DNA from: a virus
DNA: 64,000 bases
Virus record (IMG/VR): IMGVR_UViG_3300045988_149572
Strand: one strand, 5' to 3'
The position numbers and the translations under genes are program-made. Position 1 is the stretch's first letter. Each line of letters begins with the position of its first letter. The notes beneath the pieces are model-generated. The model was not told the DNA's origin and did no database searches. It was given only the letters and a program-made list of their open reading frames with translations. Shown piece after piece: positions 6,001-53,750 of this stretch.

Positions 6001-9000
6001 ATTTCCCAGGCGAAGACGACGCTCAGAAACTTTACAACGCTGCGGTTGACGGCAGAAAGTCGAGGGCAATAGAATCGTGGCAGGATGAGATGTTCCCCGT
6101 GAAGATGCTCCAAGAGGCGATTGAGAAAGCCACGGGCGAGAAGATAGCCGACTTCGAGAACGCATATCTGTTAGAGAATCAACTCGGCTCGGCAGGAAAC
6201 GCAACGTTGGAGAAGTATGCGAGAGAGGTTCAGAATCCAATGCGCAAGGTGTATCTTGACATGCTCAAAGCCAAGTTTGATGGAGGGAGCAAAGTTACAA
6301 AGTCGGACATCAACAAGTATGTGATAGCGGTTCACGGATTGGAACGCAATAAGTATATGGCGGATAAGAACAAGGGGTTGCCCGATGCTCGCAGGGACTA
6401 TTCCGGTTTTACCGCATTGTTCGGCAATGGAGAGCAAGTAGAGGTTGAAGAACTTGAACGTAGAGCGGAAGAATATATCGGGAAGTTTGAGGATGCAGTG
6501 GGTAAAGACAAAGCGGATAAGCTATGGTCGCTTGTGGATGAATCAAGACAACGCACGTTGGACGAACTTGTGAGGTCAGGCTTGGTAAGCGGCGATGTCG
6601 CAGATGAATGGTTGCGTCGCTTCGAGCACTATGTCCCGTTGCAAGGCTTCTCAGAGGAGGTTATAGGAGAGGACAGAAACGCTAATTTCGAAAACCACAT
6701 CACGGGGCGTATGTCCGAGGCAAGAGACCCTTTGGCAACACTCGTGAATATGGAGTATGTTGCTGTAACGAGCGGCAATCACAACAGAGTGAAACAGGCT
6801 CTTTACAACCTTGCGCTCAACCATAGAACAAACCTTCTCTCTGTAATGCCGATGTTCTCTGTAAAGAATCCAATTACTGGTGAATGGGAGGATGCGGTTC
6901 CGCAGATTGATGAAACGATGTCACCGATTGAGAGACAACGGGAGGTTGATAAGTTTATCAAGCAGATGCGCGTACGTATGCGCGAGGAGAAAGACCTTCC
7001 AGAATCGGACAAAACTGTCAAGGATGCAAGAAAGGTAAGCGTTGGTAGTAAAGTATTGCCTAAAGCTATGCCAGACTTTATTGTGAGGATGAAAGTCAAC
7101 GGCAGACAATATGCGGTTGTCCTCAATGGCAATCCAAGAGCTGCGCAGGCTATAAATGGACGGTTGAAGGAACACCCCAACAAGGCATTGCAGAAGATAA
7201 GCGGAGTGACGAGGTTTATGTCAGCTGCGGTTACTGCTTGGAATGCTGCGTTTATGTTAAGCAACTTTGCAAGGGATGTGCAAGCGGCGAACGCTTTTGC
7301 TTATTCCAACGAGGGAGCAAAATATGCGGCTATGATGGATGCTGAAATCCATAAAAATATGTCGTTGACTTCATTGGGCAGAGATTTGTTTGGGATGAAA
7401 AATAAAGGTATTTATAAGTTATATTATAAATACAGACACAATCAGCTTGACATGAGTAATGAACGGGAAAGATTCTTCAAAGAGTTTGTTGACAATGGAG
7501 GTGAGACCGGGTACACACAGATGGTTGACATTGATAAAATCGCCAAACAGATGCAGAAAGATGAATTTTCTGCAATCAAAGCGATTAAATCGGTCGGCAA
7601 GTTCATTGAATTGGCAAACAAGGGCTTTGAGAACGCGACACGTTTCGCAGCGTATGCAACAAGCCGAAAAATGGGTAAGTCTGTTATGCAGAGCATTAAC
7701 GACGCAAAAGAGATAAGCGTCAATTTCAACAGACACGGAAATGGGCGGAACGGATATGTCATCGCCAAATCGTTGTATCAATTCTTGAATCCTACAATAC
7801 AAGGATTGGAGAAACAATTGCGTACAATAAAAGAACACCCATTAGAGGGCACAGCCGTGTTAATTGCGACACCGATTGCAATAGGATTTGCCATCCCGCT
7901 TGTAAATATCGGATTGGCTATGTTGTCGGGCGGAGGTGACGATGACAAAAAATACTATTGGTCACTTAGCGATTGGACACGCAGAAACAATCTCATTATT
8001 GGTGTGAATGGTAAATTTATAAAAATTCCGTTGCCACCAGAGTTGAGGGTGTTTTATGGAATTGGAGAGATGATTGCGTCGAAGATGAGCAACCCATATG
8101 ACAAGACGAATCTTTTGACTGAAATCCCGAAGCATATCAGTGAAACATTGCCGTTCAATGACACAAACAGTACATTTCCATCGTTTGTTAAACCATTTAT
8201 TGAATCAGAGGTTACAGACAAGGATTTTATGGGCAGAAAGATTACTGGGCGTTCTGACTATAACACCCAAGACCCGGAATGGAAACGGGCGGGCTACAAC
8301 ACAGACGATGAGTATATAGCCGCCGCCAAATGGTGGCACAGCCTGTTTACCGACAACGACAATGAGAGAGGCTCGTGGTTTGCGGAAATCAACCCATCAG
8401 TAGCAGAACATCTTATCAAGGGTTATACAGGAGGAATTGGAAGTATAGTAGGACAAGTGTACACAACGGTAAAGGCAATAGCCAAAGGCAATGAAAAAGA
8501 TTATTCTGATTCAAGAAATTGGCCTATTGTCAACAGAGTTTATGTCCAGACCACCAAAGAAGATGCAGTGAAAAAAACTACAAATACCGCTTATCGTTTC
8601 TATCAAGACAATTACAAAAACTATGAGCATACGTTTAAAGAAACTCTTAAAGATGAAAAATCCGGTATATTCCAAAAGGCTCAAAGAATTTCAAATATGG
8701 TTGAGACTTCGGAATACAAGCGGTACAGAATGACAGAGCCATTTATAAAAGCAGACAAACTTCTTTGGGATGAAATAAAGGCACTCAAAGAGACAGATGA
8801 CAAAGAATCGCTTGAGTGGATTGAAAAAGAACAGACTCGGCTTAGGAGTGTTCTTGTAGAAGCCTCTGAAAAATTTGATATTTATGACAACGCAGGACTT
8901 ACGTACAAACTGGACAGAATGTCAAAGCCAGGTGCTTATAAATCGGATTTGAAGATTGATGTAAAATCAGCACCAAATAAGGATATGCGTAAATTCGCAA

Positions 9001-9089
9001 AAGAGTACAATGTCAAGATCGGCAAATACAAACAACAAACCTATAAAGATGAACAAGAAATAAAGAAACATATTCGTGTTAATAAATAA
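3..9089 (+). CDS. giant polyvalent MuF-like virion protein, C-terminal 3029 codons (5' end runs off the window)
   Basis: Frame 3 is open from base 3; the ORF track starts at GTG 75 only because it needs a start codon. Zincin motifs HEWFH (3198-3212) and HEYTH (4830-4844). Two barnase/EndoU/RelE-like (MuF-C type) segments (~240-510, ~1680-2000). DnaN-motif-like segment (~830-1280). Hydrophobic stretch 7843-7935. Lies directly upstream of portal. Confidence 0.8.
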   Translation, partial: AELDAQKADEEARLEAERKAEEEAVEKDAELKEDKKKPQLKDVVKAIYEKGKSAASRLYKMAFFDVAKTPDFMKKLGLTGDRFTIKYGVLSRHAGKDDSHSLTEKQWEELPDALQKPFAITRFGGKDKGYRLYTTMKNENGETIVVGVDVKNVGRDMEVNAISTIFGRRGDAKKTQKEDVLYTAENITPEQRSLLGQPNSDQYTGVRERNVSTDKGSEKAEKKQKKQSVFDKAKEIADKEEKKRKAEDNSVLGQATRAVGKKKKVNLFKYTASEKNSNSALRGVHYANGYAYASDGYILFKEKADYPKEWEGTTRDKDGNLIDGKYPDAEKAIPRLVHIPDKEVESLPSKEVLDFAIAASKKLKGEAIPVAIDGLFFNAVNLKKFLEAVASKGMDKVVYRHPMLYATNGKDEIVMMPTVNTLEGALDIADRMESAGLPKEQIDAWKAHIEAADKKMSFEDFKKAVENAKKEGVRPTEADKQESKAEAEKQKVDKQGNPIDAEGRLITEKVEDISDLSDDDFNNPKRSVELPKIPKNIDNALGANGKPVIIKKNIFERNKNAHSDLTAEQSREILKTALYSADLYAKNQKSKRPFNWVIIKTKDHDGKNKLVLLEVNDNKDNVEIVHWHYLDDRGLEKIKKQAEREGGQLLILPSEKEEAGALSSRTSDLPADKGSEVGGEKQEAEKKRPAPLSERIEDVGEKIGDARKDVWKEIIARIKNKKQGIEEALKKSSAGKLFSSLFDEKELLESGVSNEVVTFISAVKGSLGTKPRSLSKLKMWINKVLHQYDMCEQALENWESVKKKIDEWKYYSQPFYMYRAAMAVGGYESGRDVGNAELWQIADGYSDGKSVAGQWCVRKAGAYDGIYKTYEEAAEALKKFAGENAAVDGKGKRKEVKLAIYKRRTDGTMFIAPEGKPDVIIQDGFKTLYEASAYKKEHYAEMQERYRTLMDGIKPKFNENRERKGRDWRGGKDVSAEDFREAFDFRGVEFGNWMQQKDRHQALNECYDSLMDLAMVCGVSPKALSLGGKLAMAFGARGGGKFNAHYEPDKVVINLTKTKGAGSLAHEWFHAIDNYFNMQGWDEFATESTRNVERKEMAEAWKDLVRAINGSDYFKRSDKYARLKGSRYWIEPTELGARAFAVWVENRLSKYGTINDYLANNPRLVDEKASDAEKKYAPYPFDKDADWMDEKFGRLFEVMQERVDEETGKHILYSRNKAAGHEKTELTAEERELRDNLVERMRKGGLDVVTDSEEMQRVIDTENERTRMMGAGSVREHRVYHGSGADFDAFDHSHMGEGEGAQAYGWGTYVTEVEGIGRTYAIQNTTKHNDALRALQHDVDAISDQLNRHRDDLKYDEEQLKRANEWRAEAELDYELFKDEAEELKEKYGESSPKYRNHLFNDIYTDEMKRAQSSVKSMEESIQYRKEKIAELEKALKDKQAEIDELPKEFPRHLYTVEIPDDNGSNYLDWNGHPAESLLKDVGSFLESEGFERVQDNPVRYEKGESTVVLNPNATGADLYAELREVLGSDKKASQALAELGCIGIKYPADNMRGGREDGAKNYVIFNENDAKITDHTRFLRTADGEVYGLVKDGRIYLDPKVATAETAVHEYTHLWGDMLRRKDSEQWSHTVKELKNSVLWEEVKELYPELKTDDEIADEVLSTFSGRRGAERLREEARRVADGEGGVFTKAKAIETLERVKEAIARFWEGVARMFGINRYRSAEELADMAMKDLLDGVDPRKMGNNEKGIGFSAKQKRALETVTMADKSTNKATAISSADGAKVQNNLEILAESYNNRSNKTKGFITDLSQALNLERHEASHYGTFETQKGKLVTIRVSNHNARVSLFDKNGENDGISIVISNHKNKGLLNDGNAHIIEFFYSKQSLQRADGKPLSDIIRSVSEVLYSGEFKDTTGLAERQEVNGDDVIRFQFIGEKGAAEADHAEEVFANENVERSVRENPKSEEPRFSRKPGESIFDYASRVSEDGLLFRDGGTEYDFPGEDDAQKLYNAAVDGRKSRAIESWQDEMFPVKMLQEAIEKATGEKIADFENAYLLENQLGSAGNATLEKYAREVQNPMRKVYLDMLKAKFDGGSKVTKSDINKYVIAVHGLERNKYMADKNKGLPDARRDYSGFTALFGNGEQVEVEELERRAEEYIGKFEDAVGKDKADKLWSLVDESRQRTLDELVRSGLVSGDVADEWLRRFEHYVPLQGFSEEVIGEDRNANFENHITGRMSEARDPLATLVNMEYVAVTSGNHNRVKQALYNLALNHRTNLLSVMPMFSVKNPITGEWEDAVPQIDETMSPIERQREVDKFIKQMRVRMREEKDLPESDKTVKDARKVSVGSKVLPKAMPDFIVRMKVNGRQYAVVLNGNPRAAQAINGRLKEHPNKALQKISGVTRFMSAAVTAWNAAFMLSNFARDVQAANAFAYSNEGAKYAAMMDAEIHKNMSLTSLGRDLFGMKNKGIYKLYYKYRHNQLDMSNERERFFKEFVDNGGETGYTQMVDIDKIAKQMQKDEFSAIKAIKSVGKFIELANKGFENATRFAAYATSRKMGKSVMQSINDAKEISVNFNRHGNGRNGYVIAKSLYQFLNPTIQGLEKQLRTIKEHPLEGTAVLIATPIAIGFAIPLVNIGLAMLSGGGDDDKKYYWSLSDWTRRNNLIIGVNGKFIKIPLPPELRVFYGIGEMIASKMSNPYDKTNLLTEIPKHISETLPFNDTNSTFPSFVKPFIESEVTDKDFMGRKITGRSDYNTQDPEWKRAGYNTDDEYIAAAKWWHSLFTDNDNERGSWFAEINPSVAEHLIKGYTGGIGSIVGQVYTTVKAIAKGNEKDYSDSRNWPIVNRVYVQTTKEDAVKKTTNTAYRFYQDNYKNYEHTFKETLKDEKSGIFQKAQRISNMVETSEYKRYRMTEPFIKADKLLWDEIKALKETDDKESLEWIEKEQTRLRSVLVEASEKFDIYDNAGLTYKLDRMSKPGAYKSDLKIDVKSAPNKDMRKFAKEYNVKIGKYKQQTYKDEQEIKKHIRVNK

Positions 9090-29757: not shown

Positions 29758-31008
29758 TCAGTCAAGCAAGTCCACAAGCTCCTTCTTGATGTCGTCGTCG
29801 ATGTTGCGGTAACGGGAGAAAGCCTTGCTTCCATCCTTGTGACCGGACATAGAGCCGACAAGATTGGGGTCTTTGACCTGTTTGTAAAGGTTGCCTATGA
29901 ACGTCCTGCGTGCAAGATGGGAGGAGGCTATCTCGTTGATTGGTCTGCGCACCTCGCATCCTTTGGAAGAATCATAGACAAGCACCGACCTCGTTATGCC
30001 ACAGATGGTGAAGAACCGCTTTATGGCTGCGTTATATGCTTGGTCTGCGATGAAAGGGAACAGCCTGCCGTCCTTGTCCACTCCCATATATTTCTTCACA
30101 AGCATCCGCGCGCTGTTGTTCAGCGGCACTCTGACGATGTCGGTATGTTCGCTTCGTGTCTTCCGGGGAATATACTCCACGGCTCCGTTCACAATATTGT
30201 CGGTGGTCAGCCTTGTGAGGTCGGACACACGGCAACCGATGCAGCACTGGAACAGGAAAATATCTCTCTGTACCTCAAGGGAAGGGTAGTCGGACAAGTC
30301 GTAGTTGGCTATGCGGTTGCGTTCCGCTATGCTTATATAATAAGGTGTGCCGTATCTTTCCGCTTTCACCGACACGTTGTCGGTCGGAGAGCGGTCGATG
30401 ATTCCAAGCGTCACCATCTCCTTGAACAAAGAGCGCAGACGTTTGAATGTAGTGCATATATAGTTTGCTCCGCCAATCTTCTCCACATCCTTGATGTAAG
30501 ACAGGAATTTCCTCACGTCATCCTCCGTCATCGTTTTCAAAGTAAGACTGTATGAAGGGGAGTATTTACGTCTGAACACCTCGAAACTTTTCAGTTTGTT
30601 CTTCAGCACCTCATATCCTCGCAACGTTCCCAAAGCGATGTTCTTGTGGGCGAGCAGGTCGGCAAATTCCTCATCGAGAGCCATCGGCTCTTCCTTGTCC
30701 TCCGGATTAAGAACGTCCTCCACCATTCTCTGCAAGTCACGGCTTGTGCGTATGTCCGCATAGTGGGAGGAGTAGACACGCATAATGATGTCCTTGAGAT
30801 AAGCCACCTTGTTGTCCACATCTTCCCTATACGCAATCTGGCACATCGCACGCTGTTTGATGCATTCTTTTTTGGAATCCCATAGAGAAGGGTACACCAT
30901 AATGTGGCTGATGAAGTATAACTGCACCTTGCGTCCGTCACTCAGACGGAAGCGTATTTTGACCTCGGAATCTTTGGTCGTTCGGATGAATGCTTTGATT
31001 GTTGCCAT
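29758..31008 (-). CDS. int: tyrosine recombinase / phage integrase
   Basis: Catalytic Arg context CCIGCRVSDL, SSHLARRTF (HxxR), and GHKDGSKAFSRY (His and Tyr). The MATIKAFIRT...IRFRL N-terminus is typical of Bacteroidales Arm-binding integrases, so ATG 31008 is preferred over 31053. Confidence 0.9.
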   Translation of the reverse strand: MATIKAFIRTTKDSEVKIRFRLSDGRKVQLYFISHIMVYPSLWDSKKECIKQRAMCQIAYREDVDNKVAYLKDIIMRVYSSHYADIRTSRDLQRMVEDVLNPEDKEEPMALDEEFADLLAHKNIALGTLRGYEVLKNKLKSFEVFRRKYSPSYSLTLKTMTEDDVRKFLSYIKDVEKIGGANYICTTFKRLRSLFKEMVTLGIIDRSPTDNVSVKAERYGTPYYISIAERNRIANYDLSDYPSLEVQRDIFLFQCCIGCRVSDLTRLTTDNIVNGAVEYIPRKTRSEHTDIVRVPLNNSARMLVKKYMGVDKDGRLFPFIADQAYNAAIKRFFTICGITRSVLVYDSSKGCEVRRPINEIASSHLARRTFIGNLYKQVKDPNLVGSMSGHKDGSKAFSRYRNIDDDIKKELVDLLD

Positions 31009-31025
31009 ACGCAAAGGTATGAAAC

Positions 31026-31252
31026 TTGCACAACACTTGCACAACATTTGCACAACATATTTGTTATCGGTTGTGATTATTTAATACTATCTGTACAATC
31101 AAACATTTCAAAATGCTGATTATCAAGTGATATGAAAACAAACCAAGTGAACGGCTAACAAACAACGTTGTCCGGGTAAGACAACAAGGGTAGTCTGACT
31201 ATCAGAAAGTTATGGTGGATGTGCGGTGGATTTGCACAACATTTGCACAACA
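31026..31252 (+). promoter_or_regulatory. attP-like region flanked by TTGCACAACA arm-type repeats
   Basis: Five same-orientation copies at 11-bp phasing: 31026, 31037 and 31048, then 31232 and 31243. They bracket ~175 bp of AT-rich non-coding DNA next to int. Confidence 0.55.
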
Positions 31253-36692: not shown

Positions 36693-37754
36693 TTAGCCAC
36701 GATAGCATTCGGTGTTGACATAGGGTTGCTGACGCTTTATCACGGCGAACATGCGGCAGATGAGTTTGAACTTGACGGCATTCATCACACACCCGTGGCT
36801 TTTGCCTTGACTGCGCTTGCGCTGATAGTAGTGTCTGAGTTGCGGATCGTGGATGATGGCACTGCGGGCTGCCTCCGAAAGGGTAGCTTTCAACTCGTTG
36901 TGACCTTTCTTGCAGACATGGTTGCCTGAGTGTACCGAGGTGCCCGACTGTACTGCCATCGGACTGACGGAGCAGAATTTGGCATATTGTCGGGAGGTTT
37001 GGAAGCGTGTGAAGTTTCCCGTGGCGACGATTGTGTTGACGGCATTCACCATGCCTATGCCTGGGATGGAGATGAGGAGATGGTAATTGGTCGCGATGGT
37101 CTCGTCGGCGGCGATGATTTTCTTGATTTCTTCCTCTATCTGATGTATCTGGACGGTCATAAAGTCGACCATCTTATGCATGCGCGCAATGGTCTGTGCT
37201 TCAGTCTGAACCTTTATCTGGCACAAATAGGAGGCGCGGCAGCGGACACACAGATCGCGCTCGTTACGCAGCTCTCTGAGGTGTTTGATATTCTTGGGCT
37301 CCGGACCTGAGGGAGCGAGCTTCTCGCGCATTGTATAGGCATAGTCGGCGATGAATTTGGCATCCACCTCATCGGTCTTGTTCCTGCCTCGGGAACATGC
37401 GTTCTTGACGTCCAGCGGATGGAGCATGTTGAAGGTGATTTTCTTCTTGTGCAGCCATTCGGCCAGTGCGATGGAGTACGCCCCTGTGTGCTCAAAAGCT
37501 ATGGCCACCTCGTTTTTCTTAATCTTCCGTGCCTTGAGCCATTGGAGCAGTTGCTTGAATCCCTCCGTATCGTTGGAAATCTGCACGTGTTCGAACTTGC
37601 GGTAGTCCGTTTTCGGTTGATACAGGGCCAAGTCCAATGTATCTTTTGATACATCACAGCCCACGAAGTGTTGTTTAGTTGACAGGTCTTGCATATCTTT
37701 GCTGTTATTGATTAAATAAGTTAGTTGAATGCATCCAAAACTTTTAGTAGACAT
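36693..37754 (-). CDS. IS110-family transposase/recombinase
   Basis: 353 aa. N-terminal DVSKDTLD...FEHTGAYS is RuvC-like DEDD. C-terminal IPGIGMVNAVNTIV...FCSVSPMAVQSGTSV...KKGHNELK is the Transposase_20 signature. Confidence 0.9.
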   Translation of the reverse strand: MSTKSFGCIQLTYLINNSKDMQDLSTKQHFVGCDVSKDTLDLALYQPKTDYRKFEHVQISNDTEGFKQLLQWLKARKIKKNEVAIAFEHTGAYSIALAEWLHKKKITFNMLHPLDVKNACSRGRNKTDEVDAKFIADYAYTMREKLAPSGPEPKNIKHLRELRNERDLCVRCRASYLCQIKVQTEAQTIARMHKMVDFMTVQIHQIEEEIKKIIAADETIATNYHLLISIPGIGMVNAVNTIVATGNFTRFQTSRQYAKFCSVSPMAVQSGTSVHSGNHVCKKGHNELKATLSEAARSAIIHDPQLRHYYQRKRSQGKSHGCVMNAVKFKLICRMFAVIKRQQPYVNTECYRG

Positions 37755-48411: not shown

Positions 48412-48720
48412 TTAGAATGGAAGATCGTCGGAGGAGGCAGACGGAGCCGCCTCAATCTGTTCAGTGGTCGGTTGGCTTGGCATAGGCTTCAGCTCCGAGA
48501 AGTCGCCTATGTAGAGGTTCTCGCCCTCCACCTGCTGGTCTTTCGGTACGCTTACTTTCATAGAATGGGTGTATGTGCGCTCTCCGAATGTGGAGGGCGT
48601 CTTGCGCTCCCATAGACCGACATTGAGGAATATGTGTTCTGTGCCGTCCTTGCACATTACTTTTTTGAAAAATCTCTTTGGGACTTTGGTTAAGTCGATT
48701 GATCCAGTGTAGTTGCTCAT
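48412..48720 (-). CDS. short SSB-like protein with acidic DDLPF tip
   Basis: 102 aa. The C-terminal SSDDLPF mimics the bacterial SSB tail (DDDIPF). Lies inside the recombination module. Confidence 0.45.
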   Translation of the reverse strand: MSNYTGSIDLTKVPKRFFKKVMCKDGTEHIFLNVGLWERKTPSTFGERTYTHSMKVSVPKDQQVEGENLYIGDFSELKPMPSQPTTEQIEAAPSASSDDLPF

Positions 48721-49613
48721 AATGATGTAATTCTTATTGATGATTTGACTTTGGTTGTTTTGATGTAATTCTTGTAGGATTCAGGATGTTCCTCTTTGAA
48801 CCTCTTGGCGTCGAATGTTTCTTTGGTGGAAGGCTCAATGTAGGTAAGCCGCATATTGTCGGTTTCCCATTTCTTCACTCCAGCCTTCTCCATCTCGCCC
48901 TTCATCCGCTCAGAGAACGTCTTCACCTGCTTCTCTATCTCTTTTTTCCTAGCAAGTAGGTCAAGAATCTGCATCTCCATAGCCTTGTAGCGGTCGGGCA
49001 ACGTGTTGACGCTCGGAAGTGGGTTGACGAATTGCCGTCCTTCCACCTCGGCGGCGAGGAGAGAGTCAATCACGCCGTCAGGAATGCGCTGTACCTCCGT
49101 TATTTTAGCCTTGTCACCGCGGAGCCAGATAGCAAGCAGACCGACAACCTTACAGCCTGGGTTCTGCCGCTCGAAGAATGTGGCGTAGATGGACAGTTGC
49201 CAACGTACCTTGTCCTCGTTGAGATTACGCACGGTCTTGATGTCGCCGAGGATATACTCCGTTTCGGAGACTTTGAACACCTTGTCAATAGGAGACGCAA
49301 AGTGCTCGTTGTCGCTGACAACGTACTCGGATTCACACGGAACGTAGCCGCCCTCCTTGATTAGCCGTTGGTAATTGACCACTTCTGGAATATCCTCGAA
49401 AGTAGTGCCGAAGTCGTCGCAGAACTCCACTTGTGCGTGGATTGCACTGCCACGCTCGGCTGCGGCCTTCAGCGTCTCTTCGTCAACCCCGGCATATTCA
49501 TCGGGAAACAATTGCCGTTGGAGCATCCCAGTGATGCCCTGCAACGCCCTCCCGTCGGGCGCGGTATAGGTATGCCCGACGGGGTCAAATACAATTTCAG
49601 AATATCTCAACAT
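48717..49613 (-). CDS. PD-(D/E)XK recombination exonuclease (YqaJ/Cas4-like)
   Basis: SPID...ILGDIKT is the D...DxK motif and RWQLSIY is QxxxY. Confidence 0.65.
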   Translation of the reverse strand: MLRYSEIVFDPVGHTYTAPDGRALQGITGMLQRQLFPDEYAGVDEETLKAAAERGSAIHAQVEFCDDFGTTFEDIPEVVNYQRLIKEGGYVPCESEYVVSDNEHFASPIDKVFKVSETEYILGDIKTVRNLNEDKVRWQLSIYATFFERQNPGCKVVGLLAIWLRGDKAKITEVQRIPDGVIDSLLAAEVEGRQFVNPLPSVNTLPDRYKAMEMQILDLLARKKEIEKQVKTFSERMKGEMEKAGVKKWETDNMRLTYIEPSTKETFDAKRFKEEHPESYKNYIKTTKVKSSIRITSL

Positions 49614-49614
49614 A

Positions 49615-50235
49615 TTAGCCTTGTTTTAGTTGTTGTTTTCTTTGGGAACAAGCGGTGATTACCGCTTCGTCCTTGCCGAAGTAATAAGAGTTCTTCTTAT
49701 ATATCGCAACGACTTCCTCCTCGGTCTGTGCGGCATACACCGCCGCTATTACTGCCGCCTTGTCAGGAGCAGGAATAGCGGGTGCTGGAGCAGTCGCCTT
49801 TGCCTTGCCTGAGCCCTTCGAGGTTGCCGTGTACTCCTTGCCGTTGTTCAAAGTGTCGGCATCCTTTGTGTCGTCGATAGCAAGCAAGCCGTTGAGCGCG
49901 TATTTTCGTGCATAGGAGGATGCGGCACCCGTCACTTGGCTGCCGTCCATTCCTTTTTTTGTCGCTTCCTCACGGGCGAAAGCCTGGTTGGATAGCGACC
50001 GTTCTCCGTCAGTCAGCGTTGCGGTTGCCTTGACGTAAAATCTGTCACCAAGCACCACGATATCATCGGTGATGGTTAGAAATAGCCCCTCGGCTTTGAG
50101 GAGAGGCTTGACCGCCTCGAGGATGTCCTCGCAGTTGCGGTAATTGTAGCCGCCGAAGTTGTTCCGTTGATTCTTCGGTGCTTTGAGTTGTGATTGCACA
50201 GCAATCACACGCTCGGTGAATGTCTTGTCTGCCAT
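49615..50235 (-). CDS. erf: ERF-family single-strand annealing protein
   Basis: FGGYNYRNCEDILEAVKPLLKAEGL and SYARKYALNGLL are ERF-like. ATG 50235 (MADKTFTE) is preferred. Confidence 0.7.
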   Translation of the reverse strand: MADKTFTERVIAVQSQLKAPKNQRNNFGGYNYRNCEDILEAVKPLLKAEGLFLTITDDIVVLGDRFYVKATATLTDGERSLSNQAFAREEATKKGMDGSQVTGAASSYARKYALNGLLAIDDTKDADTLNNGKEYTATSKGSGKAKATAPAPAIPAPDKAAVIAAVYAAQTEEEVVAIYKKNSYYFGKDEAVITACSQRKQQLKQG

Positions 50236-50237
50236 AT

Positions 50238-50420
50238 CTATATAAGTTTTCTGTCTGTTAGCATACATAAGATTTTCAGGGAGGCGAGGAACGATGCCAA
50301 CGCCCCAGCCTTGATGAGAGTGAACGGCAATAGTGCCGCACTCTCGTCCTCGTTGCATAGGAGGACGATGCTGACTCCCATCCACACGGTCATCAGCAGG
50401 TAGATGATTAGTTTCTTCAT
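50238..50420 (-). CDS. small membrane protein
   Basis: MKKLIIYLLMTVWMGVSIVLL... has two hydrophobic segments. Trimmed to ATG 50420. Confidence 0.45.
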   Translation of the reverse strand: MKKLIIYLLMTVWMGVSIVLLCNEDESAALLPFTLIKAGALASFLASLKILCMLTDRKLI

Positions 50421-50518
50421 ATATTTTGTTTTTTTATAATTGTCTGATAAAAAGGAGACTATCCTCACAGACCGCCTCCCGAAAAAAACGTTGTCAATAA
50501 ATGATACGAAAGTAGTAG

Positions 50519-50610
50519 TCGGCTCGGAGGTATCGAACCTCGCCCCGGTCGTAGAGAATTGGATAAGAAGTTGTTAATAATTACCGACCGAAGCCTACCA
50601 GTGCGAGCCG
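50519..50610 (-). ncRNA. tRNA-like element 1 (92 nt, non-canonical)
   Basis: 7-bp acceptor CGGCTCG/CGAGCCG. T arm GAGG-TTCGATA-CCTC (4 bp only). CGGTCG/CGACCG stem closes a 33-nt AU-rich loop. No clear D arm. Confidence 0.35.
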
Positions 50611-50675
50611 TGATGCCTCCCATATCCTCACGGACGGAGAGGCGATGAAATCTCAATCGTTAAAAAGAATGTAAG

Positions 50676-50786
50676 TGGCAGAGGGGGGAATCGAACCCCC
50701 TGTGAAAAACAATTATCAACTAAACTCAATTACTAAACTCAATCATACTCTACTAAATGGGAAATGCGGAACCACCGCGCTCTGCC
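50676..50786 (-). ncRNA. tRNA-like element 2 (111 nt, non-canonical)
   Basis: 7-bp acceptor GGCAGAG/CTCTGCC. T arm GGGGG-TTCGATT-CCCCC. D-like GCGG-TGGTT-CCGC. A ~60-nt AU-rich insert with ATTGAGTTTAGT twice sits where the anticodon arm should be. Confidence 0.4.
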
Positions 50787-50857
50787 TTGTCCTCCTGCGC
50801 CCGTCACGGGTTTGGAGGGAAAATTATGAGTAAAAGTTGCTTTAATAAAGGGAATAG

Positions 50858-50903
50858 GAGCGGTGGGAGGACTCGAACCTCCCCTCGGCACCTTGCCACC
50901 GCT
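50858..50903 (-). ncRNA. tRNA-like minihelix 3 (46 nt)
   Basis: AGCGGTG / CACCGCT acceptor, small GGCA-AGG-TGCC hairpin, T arm GGAGG-TTCGAGT-CCTCC. No room for D or anticodon arms. Confidence 0.4.
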
Positions 50904-51142
50904 CGGAATATATAGAGTGAGCAGTCAATTGCTCTGTAAGGAGTGCTGCTCGTTGGTTGGTTGTATACACTGCGGCGTCATAGGCTCGCCGCGTAGCCCC
51001 AGCACCTGTTGCATAGTCGGTGCTGACCACATCCGCAACGCCAACTCACACACTCGGCTGGAATGCTTATTGTGTGCGACTCGTTGCGGTCGTTATGCTT
51101 GTTGTCAATACGTCAATGTGCTTTTGCCTCTAAGAGGCGTTG

Positions 51143-51185
51143 TAGGCAGGATGAGAATCGAACCCATCCGTATACCATACTGCCT
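51143..51185 (-). ncRNA. tRNA-like minihelix 4 (43 nt)
   Basis: AGGCA/TGCCT helix stacked on GGATGGG-TTCGATT-CTCATCC. Starts at the last base of the upstream stop codon. Confidence 0.4.
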
Positions 51186-51676
51186 TATTCGTAGATGAAT
51201 GCGTCGGAGCATTCGTGCCCGACCAAATCACAGAACTCCTGTGCTTCTTTAAGAAGGTGCGTATATGTGGGGCCGTCCAATATCGGCGAGATTGCCCACT
51301 CGCCGGAGATGTAGCGGTTGCACTCGACCAACAAGCGGTAGGTCTTACCGTCTACGCCTGTCACCTTAGTAGTGACCTCCGCATCTTGTTCGGCATCTTG
51401 TTCGGCTTTCGCTATTGCTTCCTTGCATTGTCGGATAACATCGTTCAGCGATTCACTCTTGATTCCTATCGGCTTGCGGTCTTCGAGAATCTTGATGTTC
51501 TCCTCGTATTCATCCGCCCATTCAATCAAGGCTTTGGCGGCTTCCTTGTCTGCTTCTCTCACTTTCGACAAGCTCTCACGGAGAGCCGCTTCAGCAGCTT
51601 TGTAGGCTTCGAGCCGCTTCGCCCAGATAGCAGGGCGGTATATACGTCTTACGTCTTCTTCCATATCTATGACCAT
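51185..51676 (-). CDS. hypothetical early protein
   Basis: 163-aa ORF. Internal AEQDAEQDAE comes from a 12-nt tandem repeat. Confidence 0.55.
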   Translation of the reverse strand: MVIDMEEDVRRIYRPAIWAKRLEAYKAAEAALRESLSKVREADKEAAKALIEWADEYEENIKILEDRKPIGIKSESLNDVIRQCKEAIAKAEQDAEQDAEVTTKVTGVDGKTYRLLVECNRYISGEWAISPILDGPTYTHLLKEAQEFCDLVGHECSDAFIYE

Positions 51677-52029
51677 TCACAAGTGTTGGTATATCCGTTG
51701 ATGGCTTCGTCAAGGTCGCCTTCATTCTCTATCTCCACGTCGCCCAACTCACCATCGCAGGCGGTAATGTCAACGATGCTGATTCCATAGGCGTCCTCTC
51801 CATACTCCGGCTCTGTGTAGGTCGCCGCGTGGTAATGCCTGTTCTCAGCCCACATATTGTAGAATACGGAGATGACTAAGCCGTTTATCTCTGTCCAAAA
51901 CTCCCATTTTTCGTAGGGATAGGAGAATGCGTCCGAATAGTTCTCGTCAATCTCTTTTTTGAAATCTTTCGCGATTTGCGCGATGTCCGCTTTGCTCAGT
52001 AGGACTCTCTTTAATTTTTTTGTCTGCAT
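51667..52029 (-). CDS. hypothetical acidic early protein
   Basis: 120-aa ORF with an acidic C-terminal half. Confidence 0.55.
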   Translation of the reverse strand: MQTKKLKRVLLSKADIAQIAKDFKKEIDENYSDAFSYPYEKWEFWTEINGLVISVFYNMWAENRHYHAATYTEPEYGEDAYGISIVDITACDGELGDVEIENEGDLDEAINGYTNTCEWS

Positions 52030-52051
52030 TGCTCTATATGTTATTGGTTAG

Positions 52052-52345
52052 TTAATTATGACTGAACACCTTGTCAAGGTCGCTCTTCTTGATTCTGATT
52101 ACGTTGCCGTTCCGTCCTGCGTGGAGCCATCCACCGCGTATGCGGTTGTGGATTGTTCCCACGCTGACGCCCACATATTCGGCAGCCTCCTTGATGGTGA
52201 GCAGAGCGTCTTCCTCCTGCGGTTTGACCGCCTCAAGCAGGCATTCTCCCCAAGCGAGGAAAGCCTGTCGCAGTTGTTCGGTGGTCACCGATATGGTGAC
52301 GTTCTGACCGGACTGTATGATGCTGTTGATGTCAAGCGTGTTCAT
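52052..52345 (-). CDS. excisionase/MerR-type HTH protein
   Basis: LLTIKEAAEYVGVSVGTIHNRIRGGWL...IRIKKSDL fits the excisionase-family HTH (HTH_17). ATG 52345 is preferred. Confidence 0.6.
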   Translation of the reverse strand: MNTLDINSIIQSGQNVTISVTTEQLRQAFLAWGECLLEAVKPQEEDALLTIKEAAEYVGVSVGTIHNRIRGGWLHAGRNGNVIRIKKSDLDKVFSHN

Positions 52346-52542
52346 TTCAGTCTGATTGCGTGTGTTGCCAACTCGTGGTTCACTTGCCACACCTTATACT
52401 TCGCTTCGCCCCGGACATTGATGGCGTAGGCTGCCGCGCGCACTGTGCTGGAGGATGTCTGCCTATAAGGGAAAACCATCTCTTCGCCCACCTGTAGAGC
52501 TTTCAAAGTTTCTGTTACGTTGATTTTTTTTATAATTTTCAT
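52342..52542 (-). CDS. hypothetical first gene of the leftward early operon (Cro position)
   Basis: 66-aa ORF divergent from the CI-like repressor. Confidence 0.45.
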   Translation of the reverse strand: MKIIKKINVTETLKALQVGEEMVFPYRQTSSSTVRAAAYAINVRGEAKYKVWQVNHELATHAIRLK

Positions 52543-52563
52543 TGTTATGTTGTTTTATATTAG

Positions 52564-52571
52564 TACTTTTG
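52564..52571 (+). promoter_or_regulatory. -7 box TACTTTTG (rightward, repressor side)
   Basis: Matches Bacteroides TAnnTTTG in the divergent intergenic region. Confidence 0.35.
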
Positions 52572-52616
52572 CACCGTTGTTTTGTGTTTGGCGGTGGTTT
52601 TGTTCTAAACACATTG

Positions 52617-52624
52617 CAAAGATA
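52617..52624 (-). promoter_or_regulatory. -7 box TATCTTTG (leftward early promoter)
   Basis: CAAAGATA on the + strand, about 75 nt upstream of ATG 52542. Confidence 0.35.
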
Positions 52625-52629
52625 ACCGA

Positions 52630-52651
52630 ATATTGGGTGTACACCAAATAT
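52630..52651. promoter_or_regulatory. 22-bp near-perfect palindrome (candidate operator)
   Basis: ATATTGGGTGT|ACACCAAATAT with one mismatch, lying between the divergent promoters. Confidence 0.45.
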
Positions 52652-52703
52652 TTCACCAAAAATATTATTCATAACTTAGTTAAAAAGTGTTACATCGGTA
52701 TCA

Positions 52704-53303
52704 ATGAATGGATTAGACATAAAGAATTTGCGCCTAAAATTAGGTGTTACGCAGAGGGAACTCGCTGAGATGGTCGGAGTGTCAGAGAAGACCGTGCAAA
52801 ATTGGGAGTATGGCAAGCCTATTCCGACTACGAAACACCAAATTTTACGGACTATTCAGTCTGGGGTAGAGGAGAATGTAAGCACGGAAGATATTAATCA
52901 GCGCATTAGAAAGGTGTTGAAAGATAAAGATTTATCTGTTGCAGCCTTTAGTAGGGAAGCGGGAATAGAGCAAACGACATTGAATAGGCAACTGAATGGT
53001 GGAAGTAAGGTGTCTGTTGGAACCATCAAGGCTTTTCTCCTTAAATTTAAGGACATTTCCGCAGAATGGCTTCTGCGCGGTGTAGGCGATATGTGCTGTG
53101 GCGTCCCAGACGAACAGCTCGAACGTGAGATAGCGGAGGAGACAGGTCGTGTGCAGAGCATCGGCGACAATTCCAACCACAACACGCAGACAATGACGGA
53201 TTCCGCCATTGCCAAGGAGAATGAGATGCTAAGGAAGAGTATCGAGGAGAAGAACGAGGAAATCAAGTTCCTCCGCTCCTTAATCCAAAGAAATGCAGAC
53301 TAA
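52704..53303 (+). CDS. CI-like repressor with two HTH domains
   Basis: LRLKLGVTQRELAEMVGVSEKTVQNWE is an XRE HTH. The second domain DLSVAAFSREAGIEQTTLNRQLNG...AEWLL is Phage_CI_repr-like. Coiled-coil C-terminus. Confidence 0.75.
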   Translation: MNGLDIKNLRLKLGVTQRELAEMVGVSEKTVQNWEYGKPIPTTKHQILRTIQSGVEENVSTEDINQRIRKVLKDKDLSVAAFSREAGIEQTTLNRQLNGGSKVSVGTIKAFLLKFKDISAEWLLRGVGDMCCGVPDEQLEREIAEETGRVQSIGDNSNHNTQTMTDSAIAKENEMLRKSIEEKNEEIKFLRSLIQRNAD

Positions 53304-53315
53304 ATATTTTCGGTT

Positions 53316-53750
53316 ATGAGAAAGTTTTTTTATAAAATGAGAATGGTGGACGAGCAGATTGTGGAGACCCTGCACATCCATAGAAGCGTACACCTCGCCA
53401 AGCTGATGGTACAGTTCGCTCCTCCTATCGGCGCGGGGCTTATGATGTGTCACACGGCAGTTCTCCTTATGGGTTATGTGTGGTCGGTCGCCTCGGTGAT
53501 CGCGCGGAGTGCGCTGCTCGTGTTCGCGCTTATGGTGGTTCTTTCCGTGGCTTTCGGCTTCTGTTGGATTCATCGGGCGTTCTGCGGCTACAATTTATTG
53601 GTAAACGCTTGCATTGAATATGAGAAGCTGTTCGGATTCGGAACGCTCCTTACCCCGGCGAGATGGTTTGTGCTTGCGCTTGGCGCCGTGCTTTTCTTCC
53701 TTTATTTCCGACGGAAATGGCTTGTGAAACATAAGAAATACAAAATCTAA
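53316..53750 (+). CDS. integral membrane protein
   Basis: 144 aa with about 4 hydrophobic segments. Co-oriented with the repressor, so lysogeny-expressed by position. Confidence 0.55.
   Translation: MRKFFYKMRMVDEQIVETLHIHRSVHLAKLMVQFAPPIGAGLMMCHTAVLLMGYVWSVASVIARSALLVFALMVVLSVAFGFCWIHRAFCGYNLLVNACIEYEKLFGFGTLLTPARWFVLALGAVLFFLYFRRKWLVKHKKYKI

What the first reader, a model, noticed from the sequence alone, without database searches (positions are those of the whole stretch)
50470..51185. Four tRNA-like acceptor/T-arm modules in a ~700-nt ornate non-coding block inside the early operon
The 50470-51185 block lies between same-strand genes. The only track ORFs here, 50842-51030 (62 aa, minus strand) and 50863-51198 (111 aa, plus strand), run through the GC-rich helices and were rejected as coding. 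It carries four clean T-loop signatures, seen as TCGAACC on the + strand at about 50534, 50689, 50872 and 51157. Each is closed by a 5-7 bp acceptor-like helix.

None folds by eye into a cloverleaf:
- Two are 43-46-nt acceptor/T-arm minihelices (50858-50903 and 51143-51185).
- Two are 92 and 111 nt, with perfect 7-bp acceptor stems but AU-rich 30-60-nt inserts where the anticodon arm should be. One insert holds ATTGAGTTTAGT twice.

The spacers form GC-rich long-range helices: 51033-51040 with 51082-51089, 50972-50977 with 50987-50992, and 51000-51006 with 51019-51025.

Possible roles:
- insert-bearing phage tRNAs
- tRNA-like RNase P/Z punctuation that releases small RNAs
- decoys for tRNA-targeting host defences
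- a large ornate phage RNA of the GOLLD/ROOL kind, which are known to sit beside or embed tRNAs
Basis: partly seen in the sequence, partly recalled or inferred. Interest (0 to 1): 0.8.

Follow-up and report, generated by a model that had tools for sequence, protein, structure and literature searches.

The report
Phage tRNA-like modules with conserved hairpins
A gut prophage carries a conserved, non-coding 740-base stretch in its early operon, built from four tRNA look-alikes that lack anticodons plus conserved hairpins, and the same building blocks turn up, unannotated, in well over a hundred other phage and metagenome sequences.

Summary
Read on the minus strand, window 51185-50449 is a non-coding block with four GGUUCGAnnC T-loops. 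Each sits in a T-arm stacked on a 6-7 bp acceptor helix:
- two minihelices of 42-47 nt (D, C)
- two long modules of 110 and 91 nt (B, A) with AU-rich single-stranded inserts where the anticodon arm should be

ARAGORN and Rfam call no tRNA, tmRNA, GOLLD or ROOL. 36 distinct complete versions of the block were recovered from IMG/VR and gut metagenome contigs. It is conserved at least as well as the flanking genes, and indels rule out a reading frame. Stems are kept by compensatory changes, above all in a divergent allele of module A. It ends in a hairpin plus U5, 28 nt before the next gene.

The hairpins carry an apical motif, G-GUCY-GNRA-GGAU-A. A T-loop followed 45-70 nt later by this motif occurs in at least 200 phage and metagenome stretches. 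Very few of these T-arms are callable tRNAs.

Best reading (about 0.45): tRNA-mimic processing and scaffold elements in the untranslated tail of the immediate-early transcript, cut by RNase P and RNase Z into stable small RNAs. A role as decoys or sponges for tRNA-binding host factors is not excluded. Function is inferred, not shown.

The parts
51144..51185 (-). Module D: 42-nt tRNA-like minihelix. Acceptor AGGCAG/CUGCCU (6 bp), T stem GAUGGG/CUCAUC (6 bp), T-loop UUCGAUU, and an 11-nt linker UAUGGUAUACG with a GG. Its first base is the last A of the upstream TAA stop codon.
   Evidence: Almost invariant across the distinct block versions, with one G.U<->G:C change in the T stem.
51126..51138 (-). 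Optional small hairpin GCCUC-UUA-GAGGC. It is part of a 15-nt insertion/deletion.
   Evidence: Present in 8 of 20 distinct blocks.
50905..51125 (-). Clade-specific structured core of about 220 nt. Helices: 51089-51082/51040-51033, 51076-51071/51052-51047, 51025-51019/51006-51000, 50992-50987/50977-50972 and 50951-50946/50924-50919. It begins with the single-stranded motif UAUUGACAAC (51110-51101).
   Evidence: Nearly invariant in all relatives. Fold z = -2.7. An exact 26-mer from it is found only in 15 IMG/VR contigs of this clade. Only G.U-compatible changes occur, so there is no covariation test.
50858..50904 (-). Module C: 45-47-nt minihelix. Acceptor (G)AGCGGUG/CACCGCU(C), mini-hairpin GCA-AGG-UGC, T arm GGAGG-UUCGAGU-CCUCC. 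About half of the relatives carry a 115-nt long form with a second copy of the T arm.
   Evidence: (weak mascRNA-like hit, 23.4 bits, below the 42.5-bit cut-off). The distant homologue L036 has GAGCCGUG/CACGGCUC, a compensatory swap.
50791..50818 (-). Hairpin between C and B: CCUCC...GGAGG enclosing CCC-GUGA(C)-GGG. Most relatives have a clean GNRA loop. It is preceded by a fast-evolving AU-rich linker (50857-50819).
   Evidence: The L243 variant UCC-GUGA-GGA keeps the pairing.
50677..50786 (-). Module B: 110-nt tRNA-like element. It has a perfect 7-bp acceptor, a D-like hairpin GCGG-UGGUU-CCGC, a C-free insert of about 64 nt with 2x AUUGAGUUUAGU, and T arm GGGGG-UUCGAUU-CCCCC. The discriminator is A50676.
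   Evidence: The T stem changes GGGGG/CCCCC -> GCAGG/CCUGC in two versions (two compensatory pairs).
50616..50642 (-). Hairpin between B and A carrying the conserved apical motif GUCC-GUGA-GGAU-A (50635-50623).
   Evidence: The loop varies GUGA/GCGA (both GNRA). One U.G<->C:G change occurs in the lower stem.
50520..50610 (-). Module A: 91-nt D-armless tRNA-like three-way junction. Acceptor CGGCUCG/CGAGCCG, 9-nt linker CACUGGUAG, a 10-bp stem closing a 33-nt G-free loop (conserved core AUUAUUAACAAC), and a 4-bp T stem. The discriminator is A50519.
   Evidence: The minimum-energy fold gives exactly this, z = -3.4. The divergent allele in L243/L316 keeps the acceptor (U:A->A:U) and the long stem (7 of 10 pairs changed on both sides). 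L234/L238 change the T stem A:U->G:C.
50449..50479 (-). Terminator-like hairpin GGAGGC-G-GUCU-GUGA-GGAU-A-GUCUCC followed by UUUUU. It has the same apical motif. It is preceded by UAUUGACAAC (50499-50490) and a U7 run, and lies 28 nt upstream of the ATG at 50420.
   Evidence: The covarying change G.U->G:C comes together with GUGA->GCGA in L082/L087. The crude terminator scan did not list it because of the internal G/A mismatch.
51185..51676 (-). Upstream gene (163 aa, no known family). Its stop codon abuts module D.
50238..50420 (-). Downstream gene (60-aa hydrophobic protein), followed by Erf (49615-50385) and an exonuclease (48717-49613).

Best explanation
The block is the untranslated tail of the prophage's immediate-early transcript. 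It is built from cassettes that imitate the upper half of a tRNA: acceptor helix, T arm and a GG-containing linker, with no anticodon.

Inferred mechanism:
- Transcription starts at the Bacteroides-type promoter boxes near 52,620-52,660 and crosses four small genes and then the block.
- It largely stops at the hairpin plus U5 at 50479-50449.
- The host tRNA-maturation enzymes take each module for a pre-tRNA. RNase P cuts at its 5' side, and RNase Z or exonucleases cut at its 3' side.
- This separates the mRNA from the block and chops the block into stable pieces: two minihelices, a ~220-nt structured core, two tRNA-shaped scaffolds that display conserved single-stranded AU-rich loops, and linker-plus-hairpin fragments.
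- The scaffolded loops are the likeliest active parts, as antisense or protein-binding surfaces.
- The conserved hairpin apex is probably a contact for a host factor or a 3'-end protecting cap.

Shown: the anatomy, the strand, the absence of coding, the conservation, the covariation and the wider distribution.
Inferred: transcription, cleavage, stability and any target.
For: tRNA-like geometry:
- Four same-strand T-loops lie within 635 nt.
- The acceptor and T helices stack to 12, 12, 12 and 11 bp.
- Each linker carries a GG, like a D-loop.
- No CCA is encoded.
- No anticodon arm exists.

Structure is under selection:
- Compensatory changes occur in the B T stem, the A T stem, the A acceptor and the A long stem, and in the C acceptor versus L036.
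- The A loop sequence is conserved while its stem is rewritten.
- The block is at least as conserved as the neighbouring genes.

Position:
- It lies inside a minus-strand operon.
- Minus-strand TAnnTTTG boxes in 49,000-53,500 occur only at 52664 and 52624.
- Module D abuts the stop codon, and in other phages the first module also starts 0-12 nt after a stop.
- The block ends in a hairpin plus U5.

The class:
- The outer T-stem pairs are formed in 47 of 54 contexts against 10 of 54 in the control. Acceptor closure is 26 of 54 against 31 of 162.
- Only about 6 of 72 and 7 of 113 are callable tRNAs.
- Some cassettes sit directly beside real tRNAs.
- The hairpin's lower stem covaries strongly.

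Precedent, from established knowledge and from the abstract of PMC1920247:
- plant mitochondrial t-elements
- mascRNA
- the RNase P-processed phage P1 C4 and P4 CI RNAs
Against: - There are no expression or end-mapping data.
- Deletion variants survive in which C's 5' acceptor strand is joined to B's 3' strand, so no helix can close (L001/L083, L088). Not every module is therefore needed.
- Processing signals alone would not need 99% conservation of a 220-nt core, nor a conserved apical hairpin sequence shared by unrelated phages. Something more specific is being recognised.
- No complementary target for the A loop or the B insert exists in the 64-kb window.
- The AU-rich linkers between modules evolve fast, so they are not conserved seeds.
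- RNase P cleavage beside the stop codon would leave the upstream mRNA without a protective 3' structure.
Confidence: 0.45

Rival explanations
1. tRNA-mimic decoys or sponges. The anticodon-less modules, with the conserved hairpin, are made in quantity early in infection. They would soak up a host factor that recognises the tRNA elbow or acceptor end, such as a defence tRNase or tRNA-modifying toxin, the CCA-adding enzyme, a modification enzyme, or an RNA-binding protein that recognises the hairpin apex.
For: - Only the upper half of the tRNA is kept, and several non-identical copies sit in a row.
- The block is in the early operon.
- The class is spread across unrelated phages with no shared neighbouring protein (at most 14 of 71 loci). 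This points to a host partner.
- The apical hairpin sequence, including its G.U pair, is invariant, as expected for a protein contact.
- Copy number changes easily (L263 duplication).
- Phage tRNAs are known to counter tRNA-cleaving defences (abstracts listed).
Against: - No defence system or binding partner is identified.
- The known tRNA-cleaving defences listed cut the anticodon or variable loop, which these modules lack.
- No identity element such as G3.U70 is present.
- This reading does not explain the 220-nt core or the conserved loops of A and B.
Confidence: 0.25
2. A cis-acting transcription or RNA-stability device. The structured block, its repeated single-stranded UAUURACAAC motif and its GNRA hairpins would act on the elongating polymerase or on Rho, like a nut site or an rRNA leader. 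The terminal hairpin plus U5 would be a regulated terminator that gates expression of the downstream recombination and replication genes.
For: - No promoter box lies between the block and the downstream genes, and the hairpin plus U5 sits 28 nt before the next ATG. Erf and the later genes therefore need read-through.
- UAUURACAAC occurs 3 times in the block on one strand, against 0.7 expected in the whole window, once just upstream of the terminal hairpin.
- A similar AUUGACA motif opens the non-coding stretch in L036, L155 and L201.
- 19 of 63 hairpins of the class are followed by a U run.
Against: - The resemblance to boxA is weak. The motif shares 6 of the last 8 positions (CTTTAANA) of GYTCTTTAANA, the gamma-proteobacterial consensus from PMC5725501, and lacks the GYTC start. 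The Bacteroidales boxA is unknown to me.
- This reading gives no reason for T-loops and acceptor helices.
- Most hairpins of the class are not followed by a U run and abut another module.
Confidence: 0.12
3. Decaying remnants of a phage tRNA gene cluster. The anticodon arms have been lost, and the repeated T arms now serve only as recombination substrates.
For: - Real tRNAs occupy comparable early-region positions in other Erf phages (L004, L022, L023, L078).
- L078 has a 46-bit tRNA with a 48-nt insertion.
- Deletions, fusions and duplications occur between T arms.
Against: - The block is at least as conserved as the flanking coding DNA.
- Stems are maintained by compensatory substitutions and the A loop is conserved across divergent alleles.
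- The same architecture persists in many unrelated phages.
Confidence: 0.1
4. One large ornate RNA, comparable to GOLLD or ROOL, in which the tRNA-like parts are embedded domains of a single tertiary fold.
For: - The block is about 740 nt long with several GNRA loops and many helices.
- The fold z-score is about -3.
- From memory, GOLLD and ROOL are known to lie near or to embed tRNAs.
Against: - There is no hit to any Rfam 15 family at gathering score, and only chance-level hits at E<=10.
- The plus strand folds equally well.
- The content is modular and varies between relatives.
- The linkers between modules evolve fast.
- The modules occur independently elsewhere.
Confidence: 0.05

Closest known systems
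Plant mitochondrial t-elements (tRNA-like structures that define mRNA ends through RNase P and RNase Z)
   Same: - Acceptor/T-arm mimics without a decoding function.
- Placed directly beside coding regions inside longer transcripts.
- Their presumed use of the tRNA-maturation enzymes as punctuation is the mechanism proposed here.
   Different: - Different domain of life.
- Here several modules are strung together with conserved hairpins and a structured core.
- Two of the modules carry long conserved single-stranded loops.
- Cleavage is not shown here.
mascRNA / MEN-beta tRNA-like small RNAs (Rfam RF01684)
   Same: A small cloverleaf-like mimic made of an acceptor, a T arm and a miniature D hairpin. 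Module C is the only element in the window that any Rfam model touches (23.4 bits).
   Different: - The score is far below the gathering cut-off of 42.5 bits.
- mascRNA is a vertebrate nuclear RNA.
- There is no homology, only similar geometry.
Phage P1/P7 C4 and P4 CI antisense RNAs (cut out of an early transcript by RNase P; recalled from memory)
   Same: Small structured RNAs encoded inside a phage early or immunity operon and released by RNase P, with loops that carry the active single-stranded sequence.
   Different: - No Rfam hit.
- No complementary target for the A loop or the B insert within the window.
- The modules here have canonical T-loops.
Murine gammaherpesvirus 68 tRNA-miRNA encoded RNAs (TMERs; from memory)
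   Same: A viral tRNA-like element fused to hairpins. The host tRNA 3'-processing enzyme separates the parts, and the tRNA-like part is not used in decoding.
   Different: - TMERs are eukaryotic Pol III transcripts.
- Their hairpins are pre-miRNAs.
- Their tRNA-like parts are full cloverleaves.
tmRNA tRNA-like domain and bacterial YrlA Y RNAs
   Same: An upper-half tRNA mimic: acceptor, T arm and a D-loop analogue, without an anticodon arm.
   Different: - Only a 17-nt T-arm match to tmRNA models.
- No tag reading frame or pseudoknots.
- No G3.U70 pair.
- No YrlA/Y RNA hit.
- In YrlA the mimic is closed at the acceptor end and attached to a Ro-binding stem.
GOLLD and ROOL large ornate RNAs
   Same: Large, structured, phage-associated non-coding regions found near tRNAs.
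   Different: - No covariance-model hit.
- Here the region is a variable string of cassettes rather than one conserved fold.

Membership tests
tRNA (Rfam RF00005; ARAGORN) | Complete cloverleaf with a 5-bp anticodon stem and a 7-nt anticodon loop, scoring above the model threshold | tested here: not met
   ARAGORN default finds 0 genes in the window and in 13 related loci. Rfam gives no tRNA hit at gathering score or at E<=10 on 1 kb. Only forced solutions with 'introns' at positions 26-28 appear at lowered thresholds.
tRNA (Rfam RF00005; ARAGORN) | T arm with GUUCRANYC-type loop stacked on a 7-bp acceptor helix (about 12 bp in all) | tested here: met
   All four modules meet it: stacks of 6+6, 7+5, 7+5 and 7+4 bp.
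GOLLD (RF01998) / ROOL (RF03087) | Match to the family covariance model | tested here: not met
   No hit at gathering score over the whole window, nor at E<=10 with permissive filters over 50300-51350.
tmRNA (one-piece or permuted) | tRNA-like domain formed by the 5' and 3' ends, a tag reading frame with a resume codon, pseudoknots, and a G3.U70 pair | tested here: not met
   Only 17-nt T-arm matches, at 14.5-14.8 bits against cut-offs of 47-84. ARAGORN reports tmRNA only at a lowered threshold and on the wrong strand. No acceptor has G3.U70 (read from the sequence).
C4/CI-type RNase P-processed phage antisense RNA | Match to the family model, plus loops complementary to sites in the same operon | tested here: not met
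   No Rfam hit. No complement of AUUGAGUUUAGU or of the A loop exists elsewhere in the window beyond chance.
t-element / mascRNA-like processing mimic (functional class) | Acceptor/T-arm mimic lacking an anticodon, embedded in a longer transcript next to other RNAs | tested here: met
   Anatomy and position.
t-element / mascRNA-like processing mimic (functional class) | Cleavage by RNase P at the 5' end and RNase Z at the 3' end of the mimic | not testable with these tools
   This needs end mapping or in-vitro cleavage.
Intrinsic (Rho-independent) terminator, for 50479-50449 | GC-rich hairpin followed directly by a U run | tested here: met
   A hairpin of 6+4 bp with a GNRA loop, about -14 kcal/mol in context, followed by UUUUU. 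The simple scan missed it because of the internal mismatch. Termination itself was not tested.
Phage 'T-arm plus G-GUCY-GNRA-GGAU-A hairpin' cassette (class defined here) | GGUUCRANNCC T-loop followed 45-70 nt later by the hairpin apex GUCYGUGAGGAUA, which is flanked by a complementary lower stem | tested here: met
   Met twice in the window (B->50635 and A->50472). Lower-stem covariation across 45 contexts.
YrlA / bacterial Y RNA | Match to the family model, and an adjacent Ro60 (rsr) gene | tested here: not met
   No Rfam hit. None of the 30 window proteins scanned is a TROVE/Ro60 protein. Not every ORF was scanned.

The most novel reading that the evidence does not exclude
The window holds one member of a widespread and so far undescribed family of phage RNAs. 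These are anticodon-less tRNA mimics coupled to a sequence-invariant GNRA hairpin. They are carried by many unrelated gut phages, including crAss-sized genomes. They would act not merely as cutting sites but as sponges or effectors aimed at a conserved Bacteroidales host factor, for example a tRNA-directed defence nuclease or an RNA chaperone.
Probability: 0.25. Interest if true: 0.85.

Novelty: new variant of a known kind. Interest (0 to 1): 0.66.

Why it matters
If the modules are cut by the tRNA-maturation enzymes, this would be a bacterial-virus counterpart of mitochondrial tRNA punctuation and of the herpesvirus tRNA-miRNA units. It would also be a natural version of the tRNA scaffolds and tRNA-guide arrays that engineers build.

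The elements are invisible to ARAGORN and to Rfam 15, yet they are common in human-gut phage contigs. Phage annotation is therefore missing a recurrent RNA component.

The invariant hairpin apex gives a concrete bait for finding an unknown Bacteroidales RNA-binding partner.

The near-identical T arms explain local assembly breaks and copy-number changes in these phages.

Tried and rejected
- **DNA similarity to known phages.** Distant blastn of the block against 50,697 GenBank phage records found no match.
- **Host search.** An exact 18-mer of the core against 185,579 species genomes gave only chance hits, including a Muribaculaceae contig that proved unrelated. The host remains inferred from the Bacteroidales-type integrase and promoter boxes.
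- **A mis-spaced pattern wasted one viral scan**.
- **nhmmer with the block profile on 80 Erf-phage loci** found only the same clade, plus a weak hit that turned out to be the useful distant homologue L036.
- **Pairing between the C-free insert of B and the G-free loop of A** is weak (-13 kcal/mol) and does not covary. Rejected.
- **Targets in cis for either loop.** None found.
- **Covariance model of the minihelices.** MAFFT could not register the 5' strands, so I used pair counting with controls instead.
- **A protein partner shared by all cassette loci.** None found.
- **Literature.** Full-text searches for tRNA-like phage elements, decoys and the motif string itself found no description. 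The 2023 catalogue of viral structured RNAs mentions tRNA-like candidates only generically, and its supplements are not held.
- **Coding.** A 35-codon ATG frame that I read by eye in the core is broken by a 1-nt indel in L084/L102.
- **My first model of module A** (5' strand GGCUUCG with a mismatch) was wrong and is replaced.
Full report
**Setting**

The window is a temperate phage with these features:
- a Bacteroidales-type tyrosine integrase (29758-31053)
- a CI-like repressor on the plus strand (52704-53303)
- a divergent minus-strand early operon encoding an HTH/excisionase-like protein, two small proteins of unknown function, then Erf, an exonuclease, NinB, a Holliday-junction resolvase, a replisome organiser and DnaB

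Between 49,000 and 53,500, Bacteroides-type -7 boxes (TAnnTTTG) on the minus strand occur only at 52664 and 52624. It must therefore be read on the minus strand. Samples that carry the same locus are human-gut metagenomes.

**The observation**

GGTTCGANNC occurs five times in 64 kb. Four of these lie on the minus strand within 635 nt.

| Module | Coordinates | Acceptor | T stem | Between them |
|---|---|---|---|---|
| D | 51185-51144 | 6 bp | 6 bp | 11-nt linker with a GG |
| C | 50904-50858 | 7-8 bp | 5-6 bp | mini-hairpin GCA-AGG-UGC |
| B | 50786-50677 | 7 bp, perfect | 5 bp | D-like hairpin, then a C-free insert of about 64 nt with AUUGAGUUUAGU twice |
| A | 50610-50520 | 7 bp, perfect | 4 bp | 9-nt linker with a GG, then a 10-bp stem closing a 33-nt G-free loop |

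- For module A, the unconstrained minimum-energy fold gives exactly this three-way junction, with z = -3.4.
- I had first mis-assigned A's 5' strand.

**Not tRNAs, not a known family, not coding**

- Default ARAGORN calls nothing in the window or in 13 related loci.
- At lowered thresholds it returns only contrived models with 'introns' at positions 26-28.
- Rfam 15 gives no hit at gathering score in the whole window.
- At E<=10 on 1 kb it gives only a sub-threshold mascRNA-like match to module C (23.4 against 42.5 bits) and 17-nt T-arm matches to tmRNA models.
- GOLLD, ROOL, tRNA, YrlA and C4 models do not appear.
- Both ORFs that cross the block are broken in relatives by indels of 1, 7, 15 and 70 nt.
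- Gene callers in the public assemblies leave the block empty.

**Strand and structure**

- G.U pairs in several stems would be A-C mismatches on the other strand.
- The hairpin loops are GUGA or GCGA, both GNRA.
- Whole-block folding energy does not discriminate between strands: z is about -3 for both.

**Conservation and covariation in the clade**

36 distinct complete versions of the block were recovered from IMG/VR, Logan/ENA and JGI contigs.

Conservation:
- The D-core-C part shows almost no substitutions.
- The adjacent 163-aa gene is 79-94% identical at the nucleotide level, and its protein falls to 63-66% in L092/L093.
- The AU-rich linkers between modules are the fast-evolving parts.

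Compensatory changes:
- B T stem: GGGGG/CCCCC to GCAGG/CCUGC.
- A T stem: A:U to G:C in L234/L238.
- Allele A' in L243/L316: the acceptor becomes CGGCACG/CGUGCCG and the long stem CGGCGGACGG/CCGUUUGUCG. Seven of ten pairs change on both sides, while the loop core AUUAUUAACAAC is kept. The L243 sequence folds into the same junction; the L316 recombinant keeps the long stem and T arm, but its acceptor carries a U-U mismatch and is only partly formed in the fold.
- The distant homologue L036 (Erf 50% identical) has the same layout upstream of a small membrane ORF and Erf. Its C-like minihelix differs by a compensatory swap.

A few single changes break pairs. The proposed 2-bp hairpin in D's linker is not supported.

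**The block is modular**

The T arms of C and A, and the extra T arm in C's long form, are nearly identical. B's shares the GGUUCGAUUCC loop and the UCGCAGGGG lead-in. Relatives show four kinds of rearrangement:
- a short and a long form of C, differing by 70 nt
- a fusion of C to B that leaves non-complementary acceptor strands (L001/L083, L088)
- a tandem duplication of C3'-B-A that gives an 1156-nt block (L263)
- scaffold gaps at this spot (L135)

These are documented. They argue for a string of cassettes rather than one large fold, and show that not every module is essential.

**The end of the block**

After module A come, in order:
- UAUUGACAAC
- a U7 run
- a hairpin GGAGGC-G-GUCU-GUGA-GGAU-A-GUCUCC
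- UUUUU
- the ATG of the next gene, 28 nt further on

No promoter box lies in between. The downstream recombination and replication genes therefore appear to depend on read-through. The block looks like the 3' untranslated tail of the immediate-early transcript. This is inference.

**A wider class**

The hairpin after module B, the terminal hairpin, and the terminal hairpin of L036 share the apex GUCY-GUGA-GGAU-A.

The pattern GGTTCRANNCC-N45-70-GTCYGTGAGGATA was searched in two collections:
- It hit 80 IMG/VR stretches and 120 metagenome stretches.
- By my own rough arithmetic, which assumes a collection of about 10^11 bases, about 5 chance hits would be expected in IMG/VR.
- The contigs are 1-194 kb. 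Several are about 100 kb, the size of crAss-like phages. Most come from gut and rumen samples.

Across 45 distinct contexts:
- The lower stem covaries. 83.7% of cells are paired, the covariation score is 0.503 against 0.172 in shuffles, and slid controls reach at most 0.2.
- All eight variable pairs change on both sides.
- Three pairs of the apex never vary, among them the closing G.U pair; the fourth is C:G or U.G.

The pattern fixed only two T-stem pairs:
- The other three are formed in 47 of 54 unique contexts, against 10 of 54 in a shifted control.
- A 7/7 acceptor closure is found in 26 of 54, against 31 of 162.

A strict structural scan found 62 acceptor/T-arm elements in 648 kb and none in the reversed sequences. 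Twelve are shorter than 62 nt and 19 longer than 95 nt.

ARAGORN recognises a tRNA at only about 6 of 72 and 7 of 113 of these T arms. Rfam finds only four tRNAs in 148 kb of such loci.

The usual order is module, AU-rich linker, hairpin, then either another module or a U run (19 of 63 hairpins). The first module usually begins 0-12 nt after a stop codon.

No protein family is shared by the neighbourhoods; the most common one occurs in 14 of 71 loci.

I found no description of these elements in the searchable literature.

**Mechanism**

The modules keep exactly what the tRNA-maturation machinery reads: an 11-12 bp acceptor/T stack, a T-loop and a GG partner. They drop what decoding needs.

The most economical reading has four steps:
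- Host RNase P and RNase Z treat the modules as pre-tRNAs.
- This detaches the mRNA from the block.
- It also dices the block into stable RNAs.
- Modules A and B then serve as scaffolds that display conserved single-stranded loops.

Precedents:
- plant mitochondrial t-elements (abstract of PMC1920247, listed)
- mascRNA, the phage P1 C4 and P4 CI RNAs, and the herpesvirus TMERs (from memory)

I rate this reading at about 0.45, because nothing about expression or cleavage is shown. Simple punctuation also does not explain the invariant core or the invariant hairpin apex.

The rivals are:
- decoys or sponges for a host tRNA- or hairpin-binding factor (0.25)
- a cis-acting antitermination or terminator device (0.12)
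- a decaying tRNA array (0.10)
- one ornate RNA (0.05)

**Verdict**

The window block is a new variant of the 'tRNA-like processing mimic' theme. It belongs to an apparently unannotated class of phage cassettes. Function remains to be tested.

Noticed in passing
L139-L328 (IMG/VR and metagenome loci): The combination of an anticodon-less tRNA-like element and the hairpin apex G-GUCY-GNRA-GGAU-A recurs in many unrelated phage contigs. It sits after stop codons, in 5' leaders of genes and beside true tRNAs. It is absent from Rfam 15 and mostly missed by ARAGORN.
   Followed up: partly
L164:290-960 and similar ~100-kb contigs (L145, L160, L171, L172, L180, L192): Contigs of crAss-like size carry a ~110-nt tRNA-like element. 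Its D arm is replaced by a GUGUC-GUGA-GAUAC hairpin and its 'anticodon' stem closes a 26-nt U-rich loop. A 48-nt minihelix (GGCUAG.../...CUAGCC) lies next to a tRNA-Ser.
   Followed up: no
L078:386-496 and L071:1990-2108: Other Erf phages have, 7 nt after a stop codon, a tRNA with canonical acceptor, D and T arms but 48-70 nt in place of the anticodon loop. L078 scores 46.3 bits on the Rfam tRNA model; L071 scores only 17 bits.
   Followed up: partly
window 51110-51101, 50579-50570, 50499-50490 (minus strand): UAUURACAAC occurs three times in predicted single-stranded parts of the block, against 0.7 expected in the whole window. A related AUUGACA opens the non-coding stretch in L036, L155 and L201. 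It loosely resembles the 3' half of boxA (GYTCTTTAANA).
   Followed up: partly
L263 (1156-nt block); L001/L083 and L088; L135: Near-identical T arms act as recombination substrates. They produce a tandem duplication of C3'-B-A, a C-B fusion that deletes about 190 nt, the short and long forms of C, and scaffold gaps in assemblies.
   Followed up: yes
window 50635-50623 and 50472-50460: The 5' GGUCC-GNRA-GGA part of the hairpin apex is the same string as the tip of SRP RNA helix 8 (recalled from memory). No SRP model matches, so this may simply be a stable tetraloop hairpin.
   Followed up: no
window 36693-37754 (minus strand): An IS110-family transposase (DEDD_Tnp_IS110 plus Transposase_20) sits inside the prophage between DNA methylase genes.
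   Followed up: no
window 75-9089 (plus strand): A single 3004-aa ORF opens the window. It was not analysed.
   Followed up: no
window 52624 and 52664 (minus strand): Two Bacteroides-type -7 promoter boxes (TAnnTTTG), one of them with a -33 TTTG, lie in the repressor/early-operon intergenic region. These are the likely early promoters.
   Followed up: partly
L159:5039-5460: One pattern hit lies in a tandem array of GGGAUCAAGUCU-like units, with no flanking stem. It is a chance match and not a member of the class.
   Followed up: no
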